A DNA stretch of 40,450 bases from a virus. Its lineage: Duplodnaviria; Heunggongvirae; Uroviricota; Caudoviricetes. The stretch lies in the IMG/VR virus record IMGVR_UViG_2541047969_000017; one strand, given 5' to 3'. The first letter of the stretch is position 1. Every line of letters starts with the position of its first letter. The notes beneath the pieces are model-generated. The model worked only from the letters and a program-made list of their open reading frames with translations. It did not search any database and was not told where the DNA came from. Position numbers and translations under genes: made by a program. This document shows, piece by piece, positions 11,840 through 40,450 of this stretch.

Positions 11840-12055
11840 ATGAAATCCATGGATAAGTTAACAACGGGTGTCGCCTATGGCACCTCAGCAGGTAGTGCCG
11901 GTTACTGGTTTTTACAGCTGCTCGATAAAGTCACGCCCTCACAGTGGGCAGCAATAGGTGTGCTGGGTAGCCTGGTATTTGGCCTGCTGACGTACCTGAC
12001 AAACCTTTATTTCAAGATTAAAGAAGATAAGCGCAAGGCTGCGAGAGGTGAATAA
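11840..12055 (+). CDS. S: Class II holin / pinholin, S21 family, with dual-start motif
   Basis: ATG at residue 23 of track ORF 11774..12055. [31 protein letters not shown]...[22 protein letters not shown] nearly matches phage 21 S as recalled; the Met-Lys-Ser-Met start is the classic antiholin/holin dual start. Confidence 0.85.
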
Positions 12056-32876: not shown

Positions 32877-34145
32877 ATGGCAGCAGTAAAAATCTCAGGT
32901 GTGCTGAAAGATGGTGCGGGAAAACCAATACAGAACTGCACTATTCAACTGAAGGCAAAGCGTAACAGCACCACGGTACTGGTGAACACGGTGGCCTCTG
33001 AAAATCCGGATGAAGCCGGGCGTTACAGCATGGATGTTGAGTATGGCCAGTACAGCGTCATCCTGCTGGTTGAAGGTTTTCCGCCTTCACATGCCGGGAC
33101 CATTACCGTCTATGAAGGCTCCAGACCAGGTACGCTGAATGATTTTCTCGGTGCCATGACGGAAGATGATGTCATGCCGGAGGCATTGCGTCGTTTTGAG
33201 GAAATGGTGGAAGAAGCGGCACGCAACGCTGAAGCCGCCTCTCAGAGCGCAGCGGCGGCAAAGAAATCCGAAACTGCAGCGGCATCATCGAAGAACGCGG
33301 CGAAAACCTCAGAAACGAATGCAGCTAATAGTGCACAGGCGGCAGCGACCTCACAGACTGCATCAGCAAACTCCGCGACAGCAGCCAAAAAATCAGAAAC
33401 CAACGCGAAAAATAGCGAGACAGCCGCAAAGACGAGCGAAACCAACGCAAAGTCCAGCCAGACGGCAGCGAAGACCAGCGAAACGAATGCTAAAGCCAGT
33501 GAAACTGCGGCAAAAAACAGCCAGGTTGCAGCAGCCCAAAGCGAGAGCGCGGCAGCCGGTTCTGCGACTTCAGCAGCTGGATCAGCAACTGCTGCGGCTA
33601 ACAGCCAGAAAGCTGCGAAGACGAGTGAAACTAACGCAAAGTCCAGCCAGACGGCAGCGAAGACCAGCGAAACGAATGCCAAAGCCAGTGAAACTGCGGC
33701 GAAAAGCAGTCAGGATGCAGCGGCCCAAAGCGAGAGTGCCGCAGCCAGTTCTGCAAGTGAGGCGGCGGCTTCTGCTACTGCATCAGCCAACAGTCAAAAA
33801 GCTGCAAAAACCAGTGAAACCAACGCAAAGGCGAGCGAGACTACGGCGGCCAACTCGGCGAAAGCATCCGCTGCAAGCCAGACCGCTGCAAAAGCAAGTG
33901 AAGACGCAGCCAGAGAGTATGCAAGCCAGGCAGCAGATCCGTATAAATATGTCTTACAGCCGCTGCCTGATGTGTGGATACCGTTTAACGATTCACTGGA
34001 TATGATTACGGGCTTTTCGCCATCATATAAAAAGATTGTTATTGGTGACGACGAAATAACGATGCCTGGCGACAAGATTGTTAAGTTTAAACGTGCATCG
34101 AAAGCAACCTATATTAACAAATCTGGTGTGCTGACAGAGGCTGCC
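32877..34145 (+). pseudogene. stf: Side tail fibre gene, N-terminal part, truncated by IS2
   Basis: ATG at residue 3 of track ORF 32871..34148; MAAVKISGVLKDGAGKPIQNCTIQLKAKRNSTTVLVNTVASENPDEAGRYSMDVEYGQYSV matches the lambda Stf N-terminus. The frame ends at TAG 34146-34148, which is the first three bases of the IS2 left end. Confidence 0.8.
33431..33765 (+). repeat. Direct in-frame duplication (~140 bp units, ~190 bp period) inside stf
   Basis: The segment encoding AKTSETNAKSSQTAAKTSETNAKASETAAK..AAAQSESAAA occurs twice (about 33431-33575 and 33621-33765) with only a few mismatches. Confidence 0.5.
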
Positions 34146-34236
34146 TAGACTGGCCCCCTGAATCTCCAGACAACCAATATCACTTAAATAAGTGATAGTC
34201 TTAATACTAGTTTTTAGACTAGTCATTGGAGAACAG

Positions 34237-34602
34237 ATGATTGATGTCTTAGGGCCGGAGAAACGCAGACGGCGTACTACACAGGAAAAGATCGCTATCG
34301 TTCAGCAGAGCTTTGAACCGGGAATGACGGTCTCCCTTGTTGCCCGGCAACATGGTGTGGCAGCCAGCCAGCTATTTCTCTGGCGTAAGCAATACCAGGA
34401 GGGAAGTCTTACTGCTGTGGCTGCCGGAGAACAGGTCGTTCCTGCCTCTGAACTTGCTGCCGCCATGAAGCAGATTAAAGAACTCCAGCGTCTGCTCGGC
34501 AAAAAAACGATGGAAAATGAACTCCTTAAAGAAGCCGTTGAATATGGGCGAGCAAAAAAGTGGATAGCGCACGCGCCCTTATTGCCCGGGGATGGGGAGT
34601 AA
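34237..34602 (+). CDS. insC: IS2 transposase OrfA (InsC)
   Basis: ATG at residue 16 of track ORF 34192..34602; [56 protein letters not shown] matches InsC as recalled. Confidence 0.9.
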
Positions 34603-35465
34603 GCTTCGTCAGCCGTTGTCTCCGGGTGTCGCGTGCGCAGTTGCACGTCATTCTCAGACGAGCCGATGACTGGAAGGACGGCCGCCGCAGCCGTCACACG
34701 GATGATACGGATGTGCTTCGCCGTATACACCATGTTATCGGAGAGCTACCCACATATGGTTATCGTCGGGTATGGGCGCTGCTTCGCAGACAAACAGAAC
34801 TTGATGGTATGCCTGCGATCAATGCCAAACGTGTTTACCGGATCATGCGCCAGAATGCGCTGTTGCTTGAGCGAAAACCCGCTGTACCGCCATCGAAACG
34901 GGCACATACCGGCAGAGTGGCTGTGAAAGAAAGTAATCAGCGATGGTGCTCTGACGGGTTTGAGTTCCGCTGTGATAACGGAGAAAAACTGCGGGTCACG
35001 TTCGCGCTGGACTGCTGTGACCGTGAGGCACTGCACTGGGCGGTCACAACGGGTGGCTTCGACAGTGAAACAGTACAGGACGTCATGCTGGGAGCAGTGG
35101 AACGCCGCTTTGGCAGCGAGCTTCCGGCGTCTCCAGTGGAGTGGCTGACGGATAATGGTTCATGCTACCGGGCGAATGAAACACGTCAGTTCGCCAGGAT
35201 GTTGGGACTTGAACCGAAGAACACGGCAGTGCGGAGTCCGGAGAGTAACGGAATAGCAGAGAGCTTCGTGAAAACGATAAAGCGTGACTACATAAGTATC
35301 ATGCCCAAACCAGACGGGTTAACGGCAGCAAAGAACCTTGCAGAGGCGTTCGAGCATTATAACGAATGGCATCCGCATAGTGCGCTGGGTTATCGCTCGC
35401 CACGGGAATATCTGCGGCAGTGGGCCAGTGATGGGTTAAGTGATAACAGGTGTCTGGAAATATAG
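34560..35465 (+). CDS. insD: IS2 transposase OrfB (InsD), DDE integrase-like
   Basis: Track ORF, 301 aa, beginning [30 protein letters not shown]; overlaps insC in the -1 frame. Confidence 0.9.
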
Positions 35466-35476
35466 GGGCAAATCCA

Positions 35477-37925: not shown

Positions 37926-37948
37926 GGGGCCGAGCGCCCCGTTTTATT
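37926..37948 (+). terminator. Rho-independent terminator after the second fibre gene
   Basis: Stem ggggc / gcccc with loop cgagc, followed by GTTTTATT. Confidence 0.45.
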
Positions 37949-37955
37949 GGGTAGG

Positions 37956-38255
37956 ATGAAAATGGATATAACACCTTTCCTTCATGCGCTTTGTGCTGCG
38001 GCTGCGCAGCTATTGATTGGTCTTTTTACCGGGAACTGGGCTTACGGGGCGATAGCCGGTTGTACGTTCTTCATTGCGCGCGAACATACCCAGGCAGAAT
38101 ATCGCTGGATTGAAATGTTCGGGCATGGCAAGCGTATGAATATGCCGTGGTGGGGCGGTTTTGATCCTCGTGCATGGGATGTGGCAAGCCTGATGGATTT
38201 TTCTGTGCCGGTGGTGGCGTGTCTGCTGGTCTGGCTGTTGGTTAATCGTGGGTGA
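37956..38255 (+). CDS. Small hydrophobic membrane protein
   Basis: ATG at residue 4 of track ORF 37947..38255 with GGTAGG upstream; two or three predicted hydrophobic helices (LHALCAAAAQLLIGLF, VPVVACLLVWLLV). Confidence 0.5.
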   Translation: MKMDITPFLHALCAAAAQLLIGLFTGNWAYGAIAGCTFFIAREHTQAEYRWIEMFGHGKRMNMPWWGGFDPRAWDVASLMDFSVPVVACLLVWLLVNRG

Positions 38256-38558
38256 AAAAAGGTGAGCTGTATATGCAACGGAGGAAGAAACCTCGTTGCT
38301 GGAAGCCTGGAAGAAGTATCGGGTGTTGCTGAATCGCGTTGATACATCAGTAGCACCGGATACTGAGTGGCCGGAAGAACCAGACACAATGTAAGTGAAA
38401 AAGAAAAAACGCAGACACGACGTATGCAGGACGTGCTGCGGTTGGCTGGTGAACTTTCGATAGTGCGAGTATTGAATGATTTCCAGCCGTTACTGATTTT
38501 ACGCATTTCACGCGCAAGAGAAATTGAACTTTATCCCTCTGTCACCCCATGACGGGGA

Positions 38559-39317
38559 TTAACATTCTGGATTTTTTATTTCTAAATCAGATAAAGCATT
38601 AATTCTTATTTTTTCTAAGGCTTTATCCATGGCCCCCTTGATTCTGTATCCATAATCATCCGGTTCTTCATATTCCTGTGGGGACGGATTTGTACCAATA
38701 TTCTCAATCAATTCATTTAAAATAACTGTTACTTCTTTATTAAGAAGAACTGCTTTAGTTAACATCATCTCTGTTAATGCTGTGAAGGCTAGGCTAAGTT
38801 TCTGTTGTAGCTCTTTATTTTTTAATTTTAGATCTTCATCGTTTAGTGCTTTATCACGGTCTTCGTGAGCCTGTTGTACTTCATCCCAAAACTGCTTTTC
38901 TTGTTCTTGATTAAAATATCCTTGATAACTATTGGCTACATATGTTGGCATCATGTGAATCTCAATAATTTCAAATTCATTATCAGCCCATTTTTTTATA
39001 CTAAGTAACTGTGTGTAAATGTACTCATACATATCGTACTTTTTTTGCCAGATTTGTTGAGAAATCCACAACTCAGAAGTAATCTTTTTTTCTATATCTT
39101 TGATAGTTGTTGTATTTAATGCTAACTGCTTTCTGAGTATTTCATAGTTAGCGTTGGTAGCAGAAATTTTTGCTTTTTCAGTTATAAAAGAAACAATAAA
39201 GTTCACTATGAGAGCTACAATAATAATAGCGAAGCTCAACCCCAAAATCTCTGTGGTTGAGAAATTGGATGACTGTAATGCTTTGATAAGTTCAAAAAAC
39301 TGTTTTTCTGTGAGCAT
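38559..39317 (-). CDS. Hypothetical membrane-anchored protein (N-terminal transmembrane helix, coiled-coil-rich), AT-rich
   Basis: Minus-strand track ORF, 252 aa; one hydrophobic segment ILGLSFAIIIVALIVNFIVSFI near the N-terminus, then a charged Lys/Glu-rich region; composition clearly more AT-rich than the phage backbone. Confidence 0.6.
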   Translation of the reverse strand: MLTEKQFFELIKALQSSNFSTTEILGLSFAIIIVALIVNFIVSFITEKAKISATNANYEILRKQLALNTTTIKDIEKKITSELWISQQIWQKKYDMYEYIYTQLLSIKKWADNEFEIIEIHMMPTYVANSYQGYFNQEQEKQFWDEVQQAHEDRDKALNDEDLKLKNKELQQKLSLAFTALTEMMLTKAVLLNKEVTVILNELIENIGTNPSPQEYEEPDDYGYRIKGAMDKALEKIRINALSDLEIKNPEC

Positions 39318-39415
39318 GGTGCCTTACCAAAAATTAAGACTGTTATCTATATAAAAATGTTACCCAAGAGGGATTGTAATGAAATAACAAACCGGCACAT
39401 TGGCCGGTTTGAAGT

Positions 39416-40450
39416 TCAAGGAGGTGAGATTGTAGAGGCGTTACCTTGTTCTATCACACCAGACCTAATCTTGTAACTACCAAGGATGTTGACCGTTTTA
39501 TTATTTTTCATCGCGTCAAAAATTAAGCCTATTTCATCAGGGTCATTGATAAAACTGGTATCAACATAGATCGGGAATGAATCATCACCTGTTGGCTCAT
39601 GGCAGCTTAACGTTAGCTTATCGGCTGAGCGTTTTATACTATCAATGACAACTTCCAATGTTTGCTGCTCTGACTTAGCCTTTTCAATTGGGTTCTTGAT
39701 GATTTCTTGAACCTGACCTTGCGAAAGTTCAATATTGCTGGCCCCGCGGATCGTCACTTTGTCTGCATCAGATGCACCTTTAAGAACTCCAGTGTATGCC
39801 TTAGCGGTGTGCTCTTGGATACCTTCGGCGCGCTCTATCGTATCAATACCTTCATGTGCTTTTATTGCAGACAGCATACCATCGCGTAGAATTGTCATCC
39901 GCTCGGATTCTGCTCGCTGTTTTGCTTCTTCCTGTTGTAACTCAATAGTTTTGGTTTCGACTTGTGTCTGATGATCTAAGTAGGACGTACCGACCCATGC
40001 GCCGCCTAAAACTAAGACAGCAAACAGGAAACACATTGTTTTCTGTCTTGGGCTCATACCTTGTGTTACCTTCTCAAATGCGTTACCAAAGGAATCAATA
40101 AGTTCTTTAACTGAGGTGATAATTTCTGTACAGCCAGGTTTGATAGTAAAAACCAACTCTGCAGCTTCTCTATCCTCAGCAGTGAGCTTCTGTAAGTTAG
40201 AGGTTTTGTACTTGATTAGAGTAAAAACCTTGTACATCTCAGTTTGAAATTCACAAATACCCTGTGCCAAACCTGCAGGCAGAGTACCATTATACTTATC
40301 TTCATCACCAAAAAATTTGAAATCAATACTTTCTAAGAAGTTTAACTTCAAATTTTCAATGTGGATTTCTTCGCCTGAAATAACTCGGTCGAAAATATTT
40401 CCTATATCATCAATATCATTGATTTCATAGGTCTGAATTGCATCTTCCAT
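39416..40450 (-). CDS. Hypothetical membrane protein with one central transmembrane segment, AT-rich; start at or beyond the window edge
   Basis: Minus-strand track ORF, 344 aa, whose first codon is the last three bases of the window, so the true N-terminus may lie outside; central hydrophobic segment MCFLFAVLVLGGAWVGTSYL; no recognisable catalytic motif. Confidence 0.55.
   Translation of the reverse strand: MEDAIQTYEINDIDDIGNIFDRVISGEEIHIENLKLNFLESIDFKFFGDEDKYNGTLPAGLAQGICEFQTEMYKVFTLIKYKTSNLQKLTAEDREAAELVFTIKPGCTEIITSVKELIDSFGNAFEKVTQGMSPRQKTMCFLFAVLVLGGAWVGTSYLDHQTQVETKTIELQQEEAKQRAESERMTILRDGMLSAIKAHEGIDTIERAEGIQEHTAKAYTGVLKGASDADKVTIRGASNIELSQGQVQEIIKNPIEKAKSEQQTLEVVIDSIKRSADKLTLSCHEPTGDDSFPIYVDTSFINDPDEIGLIFDAMKNNKTVNILGSYKIRSGVIEQGNASTISPP

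What the first reader, a model, noticed from the sequence alone, without database searches (positions are those of the whole stretch)
39416..40450. AT-rich membrane protein with a central transmembrane segment: first gene of a candidate two-gene accessory module
This gene and the one at 38559-39317 lie on the minus strand, convergent with the late operon, immediately after the tail fibre genes, a classic slot for horizontally acquired defence or exclusion cargo. Their base composition is visibly more AT-rich than the phage backbone. Both products are membrane-anchored and neither shows a catalytic motif I recognise. This is the most plausible place in the window for an undescribed system, but the evidence is context and composition only.
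Basis: partly seen in the sequence, partly recalled or inferred. Interest (0 to 1): 0.6.

Follow-up and report, generated by a model that had tools for sequence, protein, structure and literature searches.

The report
Two independent prophage membrane cargo genes
The two membrane-protein genes at the end of this E. coli prophage are real, but they are separate, independently mobile cargo genes rather than a pair. The larger one belongs to a widespread, unstudied family that in most related phages sits directly behind the repressor gene, where phage lambda keeps its rexAB exclusion genes, so it is a good candidate for a new anti-phage protein.

Summary
Window 39416-40450 (-) is a complete 344-aa ORF, gene A (40% GC, central hydrophobic helix). 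Window 38559-39317 (-) is a 252-aa ORF, gene B (32% GC, N-terminal anchor). Both lie after the tail-fibre genes of a UTI89-type lambdoid prophage.

A and B are adjacent only in one prophage lineage, found in 28 of 5426 E. coli genomes. Every relative of A at 96% identity or below lacks B, and every relative of B at 80% or below lacks A. A has its own terminator. DNA homology to solo copies breaks between the two genes.

The "exclusion cargo" idea is supported for A by context. About two-thirds of A's relatives lie directly downstream of CI repressors of many immunity types. This includes phage mEp332, which has lambda immunity and carries the A homologue in place of rexAB.

A belongs to a gammaproteobacterial family of about 785 representative clusters. 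It matches no Pfam, NCBIfam or PADLOC model, and its PHROG family has no annotated function. The AF2 model shows an N-terminal domain, a hydrophobic helix, a helical hairpin and an acidic OB-fold.

Best guess: a single-gene, membrane-anchored superinfection-exclusion or defence protein. No function has been tested, and B remains unknown cargo.

The parts
39416..40450 (-). Gene A. Complete 344-aa ORF (WP_000389073.1, old locus tag UTI89_C5141). Member of a broad uncharacterised family; phrog_6191.
   Evidence: The start is confirmed by an in-frame stop and a Shine-Dalgarno sequence in the extended sequence.
40055..40450 (-). Gene A residues 1-132: alpha/beta N-terminal domain. It holds the best-conserved block of the wide family (residues about 76-112, consensus NL..LT...K..LEL.F.I.EGST). 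Predicted to be cytoplasmic.
   Evidence: AF2 model. Conservation by segment. No fold or sequence match.
39977..40039 (-). Gene A residues 138-158: hydrophobic helix and probable single-pass membrane anchor. K/R residues lie on the N-terminal side.
   Evidence: The weak profile matches to TM-plus-stalk proteins (MotB, ATP synthase b) cover only this region.
39776..39946 (-). Gene A residues 169-225: helical hairpin (stalk).
   Evidence: AF2 secondary structure, helices H169-199 and H202-225.
39425..39760 (-). Gene A residues 231-342: OB-fold beta domain. Acidic (pI 4.9), with one Cys.
39388..39411 (-). Intrinsic-terminator-like hairpin (9 bp stem, 6 G-C pairs) followed by TTATTTCATT, 5 nt after the stop codon of gene A. 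It is part of the A cassette.
   Evidence: L001 10112-10089 = window + 29299. Homology to solo A copies runs through it. The mEp332 homologue is followed by the annotated Timm terminator.
39369..39375 (.). Approximate junction between the A cassette and the B cassette.
   Evidence: Blastn end points. Solo A loci match up to q2014-2025. Solo B loci match from q2031-2037.
38559..39317 (-). Gene B. 252-aa ORF (WP_000954672.1, old tag UTI89_C5140). N-terminal anchor (residues 24-46, window 39180-39248), then an all-helical domain predicted to be cytoplasmic. It is an independent cargo gene.
   Evidence: Solo copies in Klebsiella, Citrobacter and E. coli.
38406..38503 (.). Left copy of a 76-99-nt direct repeat that brackets the 2.39-kb A-B block. 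The right copy lies outside the window, directly downstream of the dinI-like gene (L001 11493-11591).
   Evidence: The 'empty site' with one copy joins the tfa remnant to dinI in 511 E. coli genomes. The same sequence brackets other cargo in L086.
38275..38394 (+). Tail fibre assembly (tfa) pseudogene remnant, on the left flank of the insertion site.
   Evidence: RefSeq annotation of UTI89.

Best explanation
The region holds two unrelated single-gene cargo cassettes that happen to abut in one lambdoid prophage lineage, integrated beside prfC.

Shown: the 2.39-kb block is an insertion into the common tfa-dinI junction of lambdoid prophages, bracketed by a 76-99-nt duplication. Each gene has its own homology boundaries. 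A has its own terminator.

Inferred for gene A:
- It is a bitopic inner-membrane protein.
- It has a conserved cytoplasmic N-terminal domain, one membrane helix, and a more variable periplasmic part made of a helical stalk and an acidic OB-fold.
- It is made in the lysogen. In most relatives it sits in the cI operon. Here it has its own upstream region, or is reached by read-through from the LexA-controlled dinI-like gene.
- It works alone to protect the lysogen from other phages.

My preferred mechanism is interference at the inner membrane with the incoming phage's genome-entry machinery (superinfection exclusion). The variable ectodomain would be the recognition part.

Gene B is a separate cargo gene with a short external N-terminus, an anchor and a cytoplasmic helical domain. 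Its function is unknown and may also be defence.
For: Independence of A and B (shown).
- A and B are adjacent only where both are at least 98% identical to the window. A at 96%, 93% and 78% or below, and B at 80% or below, always occur alone.
- In E. coli complete genomes the same 28 carry both. Five others carry a diverged A (about 67% nt) and seven different ones carry a diverged B (about 71% nt).
- There is a terminator after A. Cassette break points fall in the gap.
- GC differs: 40% for A, 32% for B.
- hhalign of A against B gives probability 1%.
- The empty site is present in 511 genomes.

Lysogeny/exclusion slot (shown for relatives).
- 21 of 28 distinct upstream neighbours of A are HTH plus Peptidase_S24 repressors. 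They are often only 16-25% identical to the reference repressor in the alignment. The gaps to A are 23-130 nt.
- In phage mEp332 the annotated order is pRM-cI-homologue-Timm-oL/pL-N.
- The same layout appears in Citrobacter and other loci and in E. coli MDK9L1.
- The cI-N interval is a recognised mosaic hotspot that holds rexAB and bstA (PMC8585504).
- Other family members lie beside Abi_2, after an integrase, inside a tail operon, or in an inovirus-like contig.

Architecture and topology (predicted).
- AF2 pLDDT is 79.9. The C-terminal domain has an OB fold.
- The hydrophobic helix is conserved in position. In the close family, 3 K/R residues flank it on the N side and 1 on the C side.
- The part C-terminal to the helix is Cys-poor (0 Cys in 37 of 56 members), and the N-terminal part is not.
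- The N-domain is the most conserved segment across the wide family.

Expression. Promoter-trap fragments for UTI89_C5141 and C5140 are each listed as active single-gene units (PMC5404293).
Against: - No phenotype exists for any family member in the literature I could search.
- Context is not function. RexA in the same slot also tunes the lysis-lysogeny switch (PMC11077077).
- In the window itself A is not in the cI slot, and no sigma-70 consensus promoter was found in its 446-nt upstream region.
- The membrane helix is borderline (Hessa sum +0.9). Charge bias across the wide family is weak: 26 members favour the N side, 18 the C side, 12 tie.
- The AF2 pTM of 0.69 hints that the N- and C-terminal parts may pack together, which would not fit opposite sides of a membrane. 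I could not inspect the coordinates.
- PADLOC 2.0 dates from 2023. Brenes & Laub 2025 and the DefensePredictor supplements could not be read, so a recent naming cannot be excluded.
Confidence: 0.5

Rival explanations
1. A and B form one two-gene system. The two membrane proteins would work together, for example as sensor plus effector.
For: They lie on the same strand, 98 nt apart. Both have low GC and both are membrane-anchored. The pair is invariant in all 28 E. coli genomes that carry either gene at high identity.
Against: No co-occurrence outside this one lineage in about 70 further loci or among diverged E. coli copies. A terminator lies between them. Cassette boundaries fall between them. 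B has no homologue in 50,697 phage genomes, while A has 10. Their GC contents differ.
Confidence: 0.06
2. A is an abortive-infection protein: a one-polypeptide functional analogue of RexA plus RexB. The soluble domains would sense infection, and the hydrophobic helix would insert or oligomerise to depolarise the membrane and kill the cell.
For: It occupies the rexAB slot, including in a phage with lambda immunity. The other characterised occupants, rexAB and bstA, are abortive systems. The compact AF2 model (pTM 0.69) would fit a soluble state with a shielded helix. The helix is borderline as a membrane segment.
Against: No homology to RexA or RexB (hhalign probabilities 0.8% and 0.2%). A single borderline helix is a weak basis for a channel. 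The Cys and charge patterns fit a constitutive N-in/C-out anchor.
Confidence: 0.2
3. A is not a defence gene. It would be a lysogenic-conversion or regulatory factor, for example one that modifies an envelope process of the host or tunes prophage induction.
For: RexA in the same slot modulates the bistable switch independently of exclusion. In the window lineage and in Serratia, A lies downstream of a dinI-like gene; the window-lineage copy has a LexA box. The promoter fragment was scored as induced inside bladder cells. The bitopic layout resembles envelope scaffolds, and GenBank submitters labelled homologues 'T2SS GspM containing'.
Against: The family turns up in many kinds of phage and slot: lambdoid cI slot, P2-like tail end, tail operon, integrase end, inovirus-like contig. 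That pattern is typical of mobile defence cargo, not of a regulator tied to one phage's circuitry. No Pfam T2SSM match appears even at E up to 1.
Confidence: 0.2
4. One or both ORFs are decaying remnants without function.
For: The neighbourhood contains a tfa pseudogene. The prophage carries an IS2 insertion in a tail fibre gene.
Against: Both ORFs are intact. They are conserved at 45-94% identity across genera with many invariant residues. A's family has 785 full-length representative clusters.
Confidence: 0.02

Closest known systems
Phage lambda RexA/RexB exclusion system
   Same: Relatives of A occupy exactly the rexAB position: downstream of cI, upstream of Timm/oL/pL/N. In phage mEp332, which has lambda immunity, the A homologue stands there and rexAB is absent. 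Rex has a membrane component, and A is predicted to be membrane-anchored.
   Different: A is one gene, not two. No sequence relationship was found (hhalign probabilities 0.8% and 0.2%). RexB has four membrane helices (my own knowledge), whereas A has one. The copy in this window is not in the cI slot at all.
BstA (Salmonella prophage BTP1) and other single-gene defences behind the prophage repressor
   Same: A single gene directly downstream of cI, presumably sharing its promoter, with a conserved slot across diverse repressors (PMC8585504).
   Different: BstA is a cytoplasmic DNA-associated abortive protein with a self-immunity DNA element. A shows no match to any PADLOC model, BstA included, and has a membrane helix.
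Membrane-anchored superinfection-exclusion proteins that block genome entry (P22 SieA, HK97 gp15, lactococcal Sie2009, Ltp). The list is from my own knowledge; SieA is also covered by PMC10883804, seen.
   Same: These are prophage-expressed, small to medium membrane proteins encoded as cargo, and each acts alone. This is the mechanism I favour for A.
   Different: No homology was tested or seen. Those proteins have no OB-fold ectodomain or 130-residue cytoplasmic domain as far as I know. A's activity is untested.
SNIPE / PD-lambda-1 (membrane-bound nuclease that cuts phage DNA during injection)
   Same: A single-pass inner-membrane anchor holding an elongated, largely helical protein at the site of genome entry (PMC13190303). 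B in particular has the same predicted topology: N-terminus outside, the rest cytoplasmic.
   Different: Neither A nor B has DUF4041 or a GIY-YIG nuclease, and neither has any Pfam or PADLOC match.
Bitopic envelope scaffolds of the GspL/GspM/PilN-PilO type
   Same: The general layout of a cytoplasmic part, one membrane helix, a periplasmic coiled coil and a small globular domain. GenBank records PV340541-PV340554 label homologues 'T2SS GspM containing protein'.
   Different: No Pfam T2SSM match at E up to 1. The globular C-terminal domain is an OB fold, not the ferredoxin-like fold of GspM/PilO (the GspM fold is from my own knowledge). The label appears to be an over-annotation.

Membership tests
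   They are adjacent only at 98% identity or more. All diverged copies are solo.
   A terminator-like hairpin follows A. The homology break points of solo cassettes fall in the gap. The promoter-trap study lists each as a one-gene unit.
Lambda Rex system | Located between cI and pL/N and cotranscribed with cI. | tested here: inconclusive
   Position is met for about two-thirds of A's relatives. It is not met for the copy in this window, which lies between the tail fibre genes and dinI. Cotranscription was not tested.
Lambda Rex system | Sequence homology to RexA or RexB. | tested here: not met
   hhalign of the 56-sequence profile against lambda RexA gives probability 0.8%, and against RexB 0.2%.
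Lambda Rex system | Excludes T4 rII and causes loss of membrane potential on infection. | not testable with these tools
   Needs plating and physiology of lysogens.
Known anti-phage defence families (PADLOC-DB 2.0.0) | Significant match to a defence-protein model. | tested here: not met
   For A and B the best E-values are 0.007 and 0.016. Of 56 diverse A-family members, one matched one candidate model at 5e-4. The database dates from 2023.
Curated protein families (Pfam-A 2025, NCBIfam June 2026, PHROGs v4) | Match above the curated cut-off. | tested here: not met
   No Pfam or NCBIfam match for A, B or diverse members. A matches phrog_6191 (7e-93), which has no known function. B matches no PHROG.
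OB-fold proteins (nucleic-acid-binding type) | Five-stranded beta-barrel fold. | tested here: met
OB-fold proteins (nucleic-acid-binding type) | Basic, aromatic ligand-binding face typical of ssDNA binders. | tested here: not met
   The domain has pI 4.9, with 12 K+R against 16 D+E and only 5 aromatic residues in 114. This measures overall composition only. The surface was not mapped.
Type II secretion GspM (label in GenBank PV340541-PV340554) | Match to the T2SSM family. | tested here: not met
   No such Pfam hit at E up to 1. The only structural matches are OB folds.
Integral inner-membrane protein (A) | A membrane-spanning helix, with the N-terminus inside and the C-terminus outside. | tested here: inconclusive
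   The helix at 140-158 has Kyte-Doolittle 1.82 and Hessa sum +0.9. It is conserved in position. Charge bias is clear in the close family and weak in the wide family. Cys distribution is consistent. No dedicated topology predictor and no experiment were available.
SNIPE / PD-lambda-1 | Membrane anchor plus DUF4041 plus GIY-YIG nuclease. | tested here: not met
   Only the anchor is present. No DUF4041 or nuclease domain was found in A or B.

The most novel reading that the evidence does not exclude
Gene A represents a new, widespread family of single-protein, trans-envelope anti-phage sensors. There are about 785 clusters at 50% identity across Enterobacterales, Aeromonas, Vibrionaceae and Pseudoalteromonas, with structural look-alikes in a Leptospira phage. 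In this reading a variable periplasmic OB-fold on a helical stalk detects or blocks the incoming phage's injection apparatus, and a conserved cytoplasmic domain executes or relays the response. The family would be a functional replacement for rexAB in phages with lambda immunity.
Probability: 0.25. Interest if true: 0.75.

Novelty: new variant of a known kind. Interest (0 to 1): 0.5.

Why it matters
The interval behind the prophage repressor is among the most productive places to look for anti-phage genes; rexAB and bstA both sit there. Here an undescribed family fills that slot behind at least 21 different repressors, and in one natural lambda relative it replaces rexAB. That gives a directly testable candidate. 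One gene can be cloned alone, a natural isogenic comparison exists (mEp332 against lambda), and several hundred diverse homologues are available for specificity mapping.

If the predicted topology is right, it would be a rare case of a defence protein with a sizeable periplasmic recognition domain. That bears on the open question of how cells detect phages before or during genome entry.

The negative result also matters. It shows that adjacency of two low-GC membrane genes in a cargo slot is not evidence of a system. It also documents a conserved 76-190-nt sequence that brackets swappable cargo downstream of tfa in E. coli lambdoid prophages.

Tried and rejected
- Known-family searches for A, B and 56 diverse A-family members gave nothing usable: Pfam, PADLOC, NCBIfam, PHROGs and a PDB sequence profile.
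- The AFDB50 library was not available.
- The B model was too uncertain (pTM 0.30) to justify a fold search.
- Homology of A to RexA, RexB or B was rejected by hhalign.
- I looked for a cI remnant upstream of A, to see whether the cassette came from an immunity region. None was found.
- I asked whether the repeat at the cassette border is a known RNA. Rfam gave only a sub-threshold partial IS009 match over the tfa remnant, and nothing on the repeat.
- The apparent 91-93% diverged A-B pair in strain SCU-306 was rejected as evidence of co-conservation. Every gene in that stretch, including prfC, is annotated as frameshifted, so it is an error-rich assembly.
- Literature searches by accession, locus tag, phage name and topic found no functional study. 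Degnan et al. 2007, Brenes & Laub 2025 and the DefensePredictor supplements could not be read.
- The profile search with the 56-sequence alignment in the 5.8-billion-protein database was limited by its candidate cap and added only four distant members.
- Two of three extra viral-contig scans with distant members found nothing.
Full report
WHAT IS THERE

The window is a lambdoid prophage of E. coli. The last 2151 bases are 100% identical to UTI89 (NC_007946.1 5030298-5032448) and to eight other complete-genome records. In UTI89 the order is: tail tip J, lom-like gene, tail fibre genes, a small hypothetical gene, a tail-fibre-assembly pseudogene, gene B (-), gene A (-), a dinI-like gene (-), then the host gene prfC. 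The two ORFs therefore lie in the accessory slot at the right end of the prophage.

Gene A (39416-40450, minus strand, 344 aa) is complete inside the window.
- Its ATG is the last window base and is the RefSeq start.
- In the extended sequence an in-frame TAA lies two codons upstream, and an AAGGA lies in Shine-Dalgarno position.

Gene B (38559-39317, minus strand) encodes 252 aa.

GC content is 40.2% for A and 31.8% for B, against 51.8% for the rest of the window.

A has one hydrophobic stretch, residues 140-158, with mean Kyte-Doolittle 1.82. B has a strong N-terminal anchor, residues 24-42, with Kyte-Doolittle 2.92. One small correction: a membrane ORF of phrog_1443 and a tfa remnant lie between the tail fibre genes and B.

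ARE A AND B A PAIR? NO.

I collected about 80 loci that carry a relative of A or B. They came from one-genome-per-species contigs, IMG/VR, public assemblies, deposited phages and E. coli complete genomes.

A tblastn of both proteins against the 77 loci held at that point gave a clear split.
- The genes are adjacent only where both are at least 98% identical to the window copies.
- A copies at 96% (L040) and 93% (L041), and every copy at 78% or below, have no B within the fetched flanks.
- Every B copy at 80% or below has no A.

In 5426 complete E. coli genomes the same 28 carry both genes at megablast level. With sensitive blastn, five further genomes carry a copy of A at about 67% nucleotide identity. 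Seven different genomes carry a copy of B at about 71%. One apparent 91-93% pair (SCU-306) lies in an assembly stretch where every gene, prfC included, is frameshifted, so I discount it.

The DNA itself tells the same story.
- A is followed, 5 nt after its stop, by a 9-bp G+C-rich hairpin and a T-rich tail.
- Homology to solo A loci runs from 114-348 nt upstream of A through that hairpin and then stops.
- Homology to solo B loci starts about 46 nt upstream of B and ends about 42 nt after it.
- The two break points fall within about 10 nt of each other, at about window 39369-39375.
- Profile comparison finds no relationship between the two proteins.
- B has no homologue in 50,697 deposited phage genomes, while A has ten.

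HOW THE BLOCK GOT THERE

A 76-nt direct repeat (95% identical, extendable to 99 nt at 92%) brackets the block. One copy lies at window 38406-38503, just downstream of B. The other lies directly downstream of the dinI-like gene, outside the window.

I built a synthetic 'empty site' made of the left flank, one repeat copy and dinI. It matches as a single uninterrupted piece in 511 E. coli genomes. The 2.39-kb block is therefore an insertion into a common tfa-dinI junction.

The same sequence occurs twice in another E. coli prophage (L086), where it separates tfa, one cargo gene and further cargo that includes a diverged B. It behaves as a recombination anchor for cargo exchange.

WHAT GENE A IS

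Close homologues number 48 clusters at 90% clustering, with 44-94% identity. All are 'hypothetical' and come from Escherichia, Citrobacter, Cronobacter, Klebsiella, Serratia, Yersinia, Pantoea, Dickeya, Proteus and Xenorhabdus.

A profile search of 1.84 billion cluster representatives finds much more.
- 785 representatives at E of 1e-3 or better.
- 325 representatives at E of 1e-10 or better.
- Nearly all are 310-370 aa and match end to end.

Named examples come from Aeromonas, Arsenophonus, Oceanimonas, Vibrio, Photobacterium, Enterovibrio and Pseudoalteromonas.

Neither A nor 56 diverse members match any Pfam-A, NCBIfam (June 2026) or PADLOC 2.0 model. The only PHROG match is phrog_6191, of unknown function.

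The AlphaFold2 model (pLDDT 79.9, pTM 0.69) has these parts:
- an alpha/beta N-terminal domain, residues 1-130;
- the hydrophobic helix, 134-159;
- a disordered linker;
- a helical hairpin, 169-225;
- a beta-rich C-terminal domain, 231-342.

The PDB sequence profile gives only weak matches of the helix-plus-stalk region to MotB and ATP synthase subunit b.

WHERE THE FAMILY LIVES

This is the most informative result. Of 28 distinct upstream neighbours of A homologues, 21 are HTH plus Peptidase_S24 proteins, that is, CI-type repressors. In the alignment, identities to the reference repressor range from 11% to 89%, and many lie at 16-25%. They sit on the same strand and end 23-130 nt before A. 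By locus, this is roughly 37 of 54 loci outside the window's own lineage.

The gene calls show the full lambdoid layout: cII and cro leftward, cI and the A homologue rightward, then N, kil and recombination genes.

The GenBank record of phage mEp332 spells the layout out as pRM, cI, gene mEp33204, terminator Timm, oL3-oL1/pL, nutL, N. mEp332 is a wild phage with lambda immunity. In lambda the same interval holds rexA and rexB.

The literature describes this interval as a mosaic hotspot that also holds bstA. It notes that the repressor promoter is one of the most active in a lysogen (PMC8585504).

Other members occur in other phage settings:
- between a dinI-like gene and P2-like tail genes in Serratia (tail gene identity by my reading of the translations);
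- near an Abi_2 gene in Proteus;
- after an integrase;
- inside a tail operon after the NlpC/P60 tail protein;
- beside a Zot-like ORF in a Vibrio contig (Zot identity by my reading).

A single gene that hops among such slots in many phage types is the usual signature of phage-borne defence or exclusion cargo. That is an inference from context, not a demonstration.

LIKELY MECHANISM, WITH LEVELS OF SUPPORT

Shown: A is a conserved, autonomous, single-gene cassette with its own terminator.

- In the close family the K/R count is 3 on the N side and 1 on the C side.
- The 139-residue N-terminal part has no signal peptide.
- The part after the helix is Cys-poor, with none in 37 of 56 members, while the N-terminal part is not.

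Together these favour a cytoplasmic N-domain and a periplasmic stalk plus OB fold. Across the wide family the N-domain block at residues 76-112 is the best conserved. The stalk and OB part vary more, as expected if the outer part recognises variable phage components.

Inferred: in a lysogen the protein sits at the inner membrane and interferes with genome entry by superinfecting phages. P22 SieA, HK97 gp15 and Sie2009 do this (my own knowledge). SNIPE shows that the entry site is a workable target (PMC13190303).

My estimates are about 0.9 for independence of A and B, about 0.55-0.6 for an anti-phage role of A, and about 0.3 for the entry-block version specifically.

The main rival is an abortive, Rex-like action in which the helix is the effector. 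The compact AF2 model (pTM 0.69) and the borderline hydrophobicity keep this open.

A second rival is a regulatory or conversion role. RexA also tunes the lysis-lysogeny switch (PMC11077077). In this window A lies downstream of a dinI-like gene with a perfect LexA box, and I found no consensus promoter of its own.

GENE B

B has 56 homologue clusters, with 47-99% identity among the full-length members. They come from Klebsiella, Enterobacter, Proteus, Kosakonia, Pantoea, Yersinia, Pectobacterium, Citrobacter and Aeromonas, and none has a Pfam family covering B itself.

Its K/R bias (C side greater than N side in 22 of 23 members) predicts a short external N-terminus and a cytoplasmic body. That body is all-helical, with a strongly conserved SELWxSQQxWQKKY motif.

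Solo copies sit at prophage ends.
- Some are convergent with tail fibre genes.
- They lie next to SRAP, UmuDC-like, RnlAB and DinI genes.

B is cargo of unknown function. A defence role is plausible but has less support than for A.

COMPARISON WITH WHAT IS KNOWN, AND NOVELTY

A is not a member of the Rex, BstA, SNIPE or GspM families, and it matches no PADLOC model. Defining features were tested and not met.

It resembles them in slot (Rex, BstA) and in general logic (membrane-anchored, single-gene, prophage-expressed).

That mEp332 carries this ORF instead of rexAB has been in GenBank since 2007. I found no functional work on it. I could not read Degnan et al. 2007, Brenes & Laub 2025 or the DefensePredictor tables.

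I therefore rate it a new variant of a known kind: an undescribed family in a known functional niche. Interest is moderate. There is no evidence of function yet, but the candidate is unusually well placed and easy to test.

Noticed in passing
window 34146-35476: A 1331-bp insertion with a 5-bp target duplication splits the tail fibre gene, which is intact in UTI89. Its ORFs read as IS2 InsC/InsD by eye. The window's strain therefore differs from UTI89, and its prophage probably lacks this fibre.
   Followed up: partly
window 38406-38503; L001 11493-11591; L086 2869-2953 and 4837-5024: A conserved 76-190-nt sequence downstream of tfa recurs as direct repeats bracketing different cargo genes in E. 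coli lambdoid prophages. It looks like a recombination anchor for cargo exchange. Parts of the 614-nt empty-site query that contains it match 4305 of 5426 E. coli genomes. What it encodes, if anything, is unknown. It has no Rfam match.
   Followed up: partly
L019 7158-7364 (-); also L020-22, L043-47, L050-53, L087 4659-4856: A 65-68-aa ORF lies convergent to, and 38-135 nt downstream of, the A homologue in 14 cI-slot loci. It is conserved at 34-52% identity and has no Pfam family. It is absent from the window. It could be a partner or counter-factor of A in its main context, or just another occupant of the cI-N interval.
   Followed up: partly
window 38042-38506 (-): The old locus tag UTI89_C5139 corresponds to a 154-aa ORF antisense to the phrog_1443 gene and the tfa remnant. 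Current RefSeq no longer annotates it. A published deletion of C5139 was assayed for adhesion and invasion (PMC5404293). That deletion would also remove the real plus-strand gene and the repeat copy next to B.
   Followed up: no
L001 11598-11846 (-), LexA box at 11860-11879 (outside the window, right of gene A): The dinI-like gene upstream of A has a TTGACA/AAAAAT promoter and a perfect LexA box (TACTGTATACAAACACAGTA). No minus-strand terminator was predicted between it and A. A dinI-like gene also precedes the A homologue in Serratia (L002 288-527). SOS-driven read-through into A is possible.
   Followed up: partly
window 37947-38255 (+): A small hydrophobic ORF of phrog_1443 (unknown function, E 4e-58) lies between the last tail fibre gene and the tfa remnant. 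RefSeq annotates it from 37962.
   Followed up: no
window 38253-38351 (L001 8954-9052, +): A partial, sub-threshold Rfam match to IS009 (64 bits against a gathering score of 117, E 1.7e-13) overlaps the tfa pseudogene remnant. It probably reflects sequence shared with K-12 cryptic prophages rather than a functional RNA.
   Followed up: no
L006-L008 6998-7675; L010-L011 7075-7743: In Klebsiella and Citrobacter prophages the solo B homologue is usually followed, 240-320 nt downstream on the same strand, by an SRAP (YedK-like) gene. UmuDC-like, RnlAB or DUF7380/EMARD_N genes lie nearby. This is a cargo island worth its own look.
   Followed up: no
window 33411-33841: The tail fibre ORF contains internal Ala/Ser/Thr-rich repeats of the KTSETNAK type. 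They align with themselves at 83% over 242 nt.
   Followed up: no
L085 (E. coli SCU-306, NZ_CP053231.1 4149161-4160206): Every gene in this stretch, including the host gene prfC, is annotated as frameshifted. The apparent 91-93% divergence of A and B there is assembly error, not evolution.
   Followed up: yes
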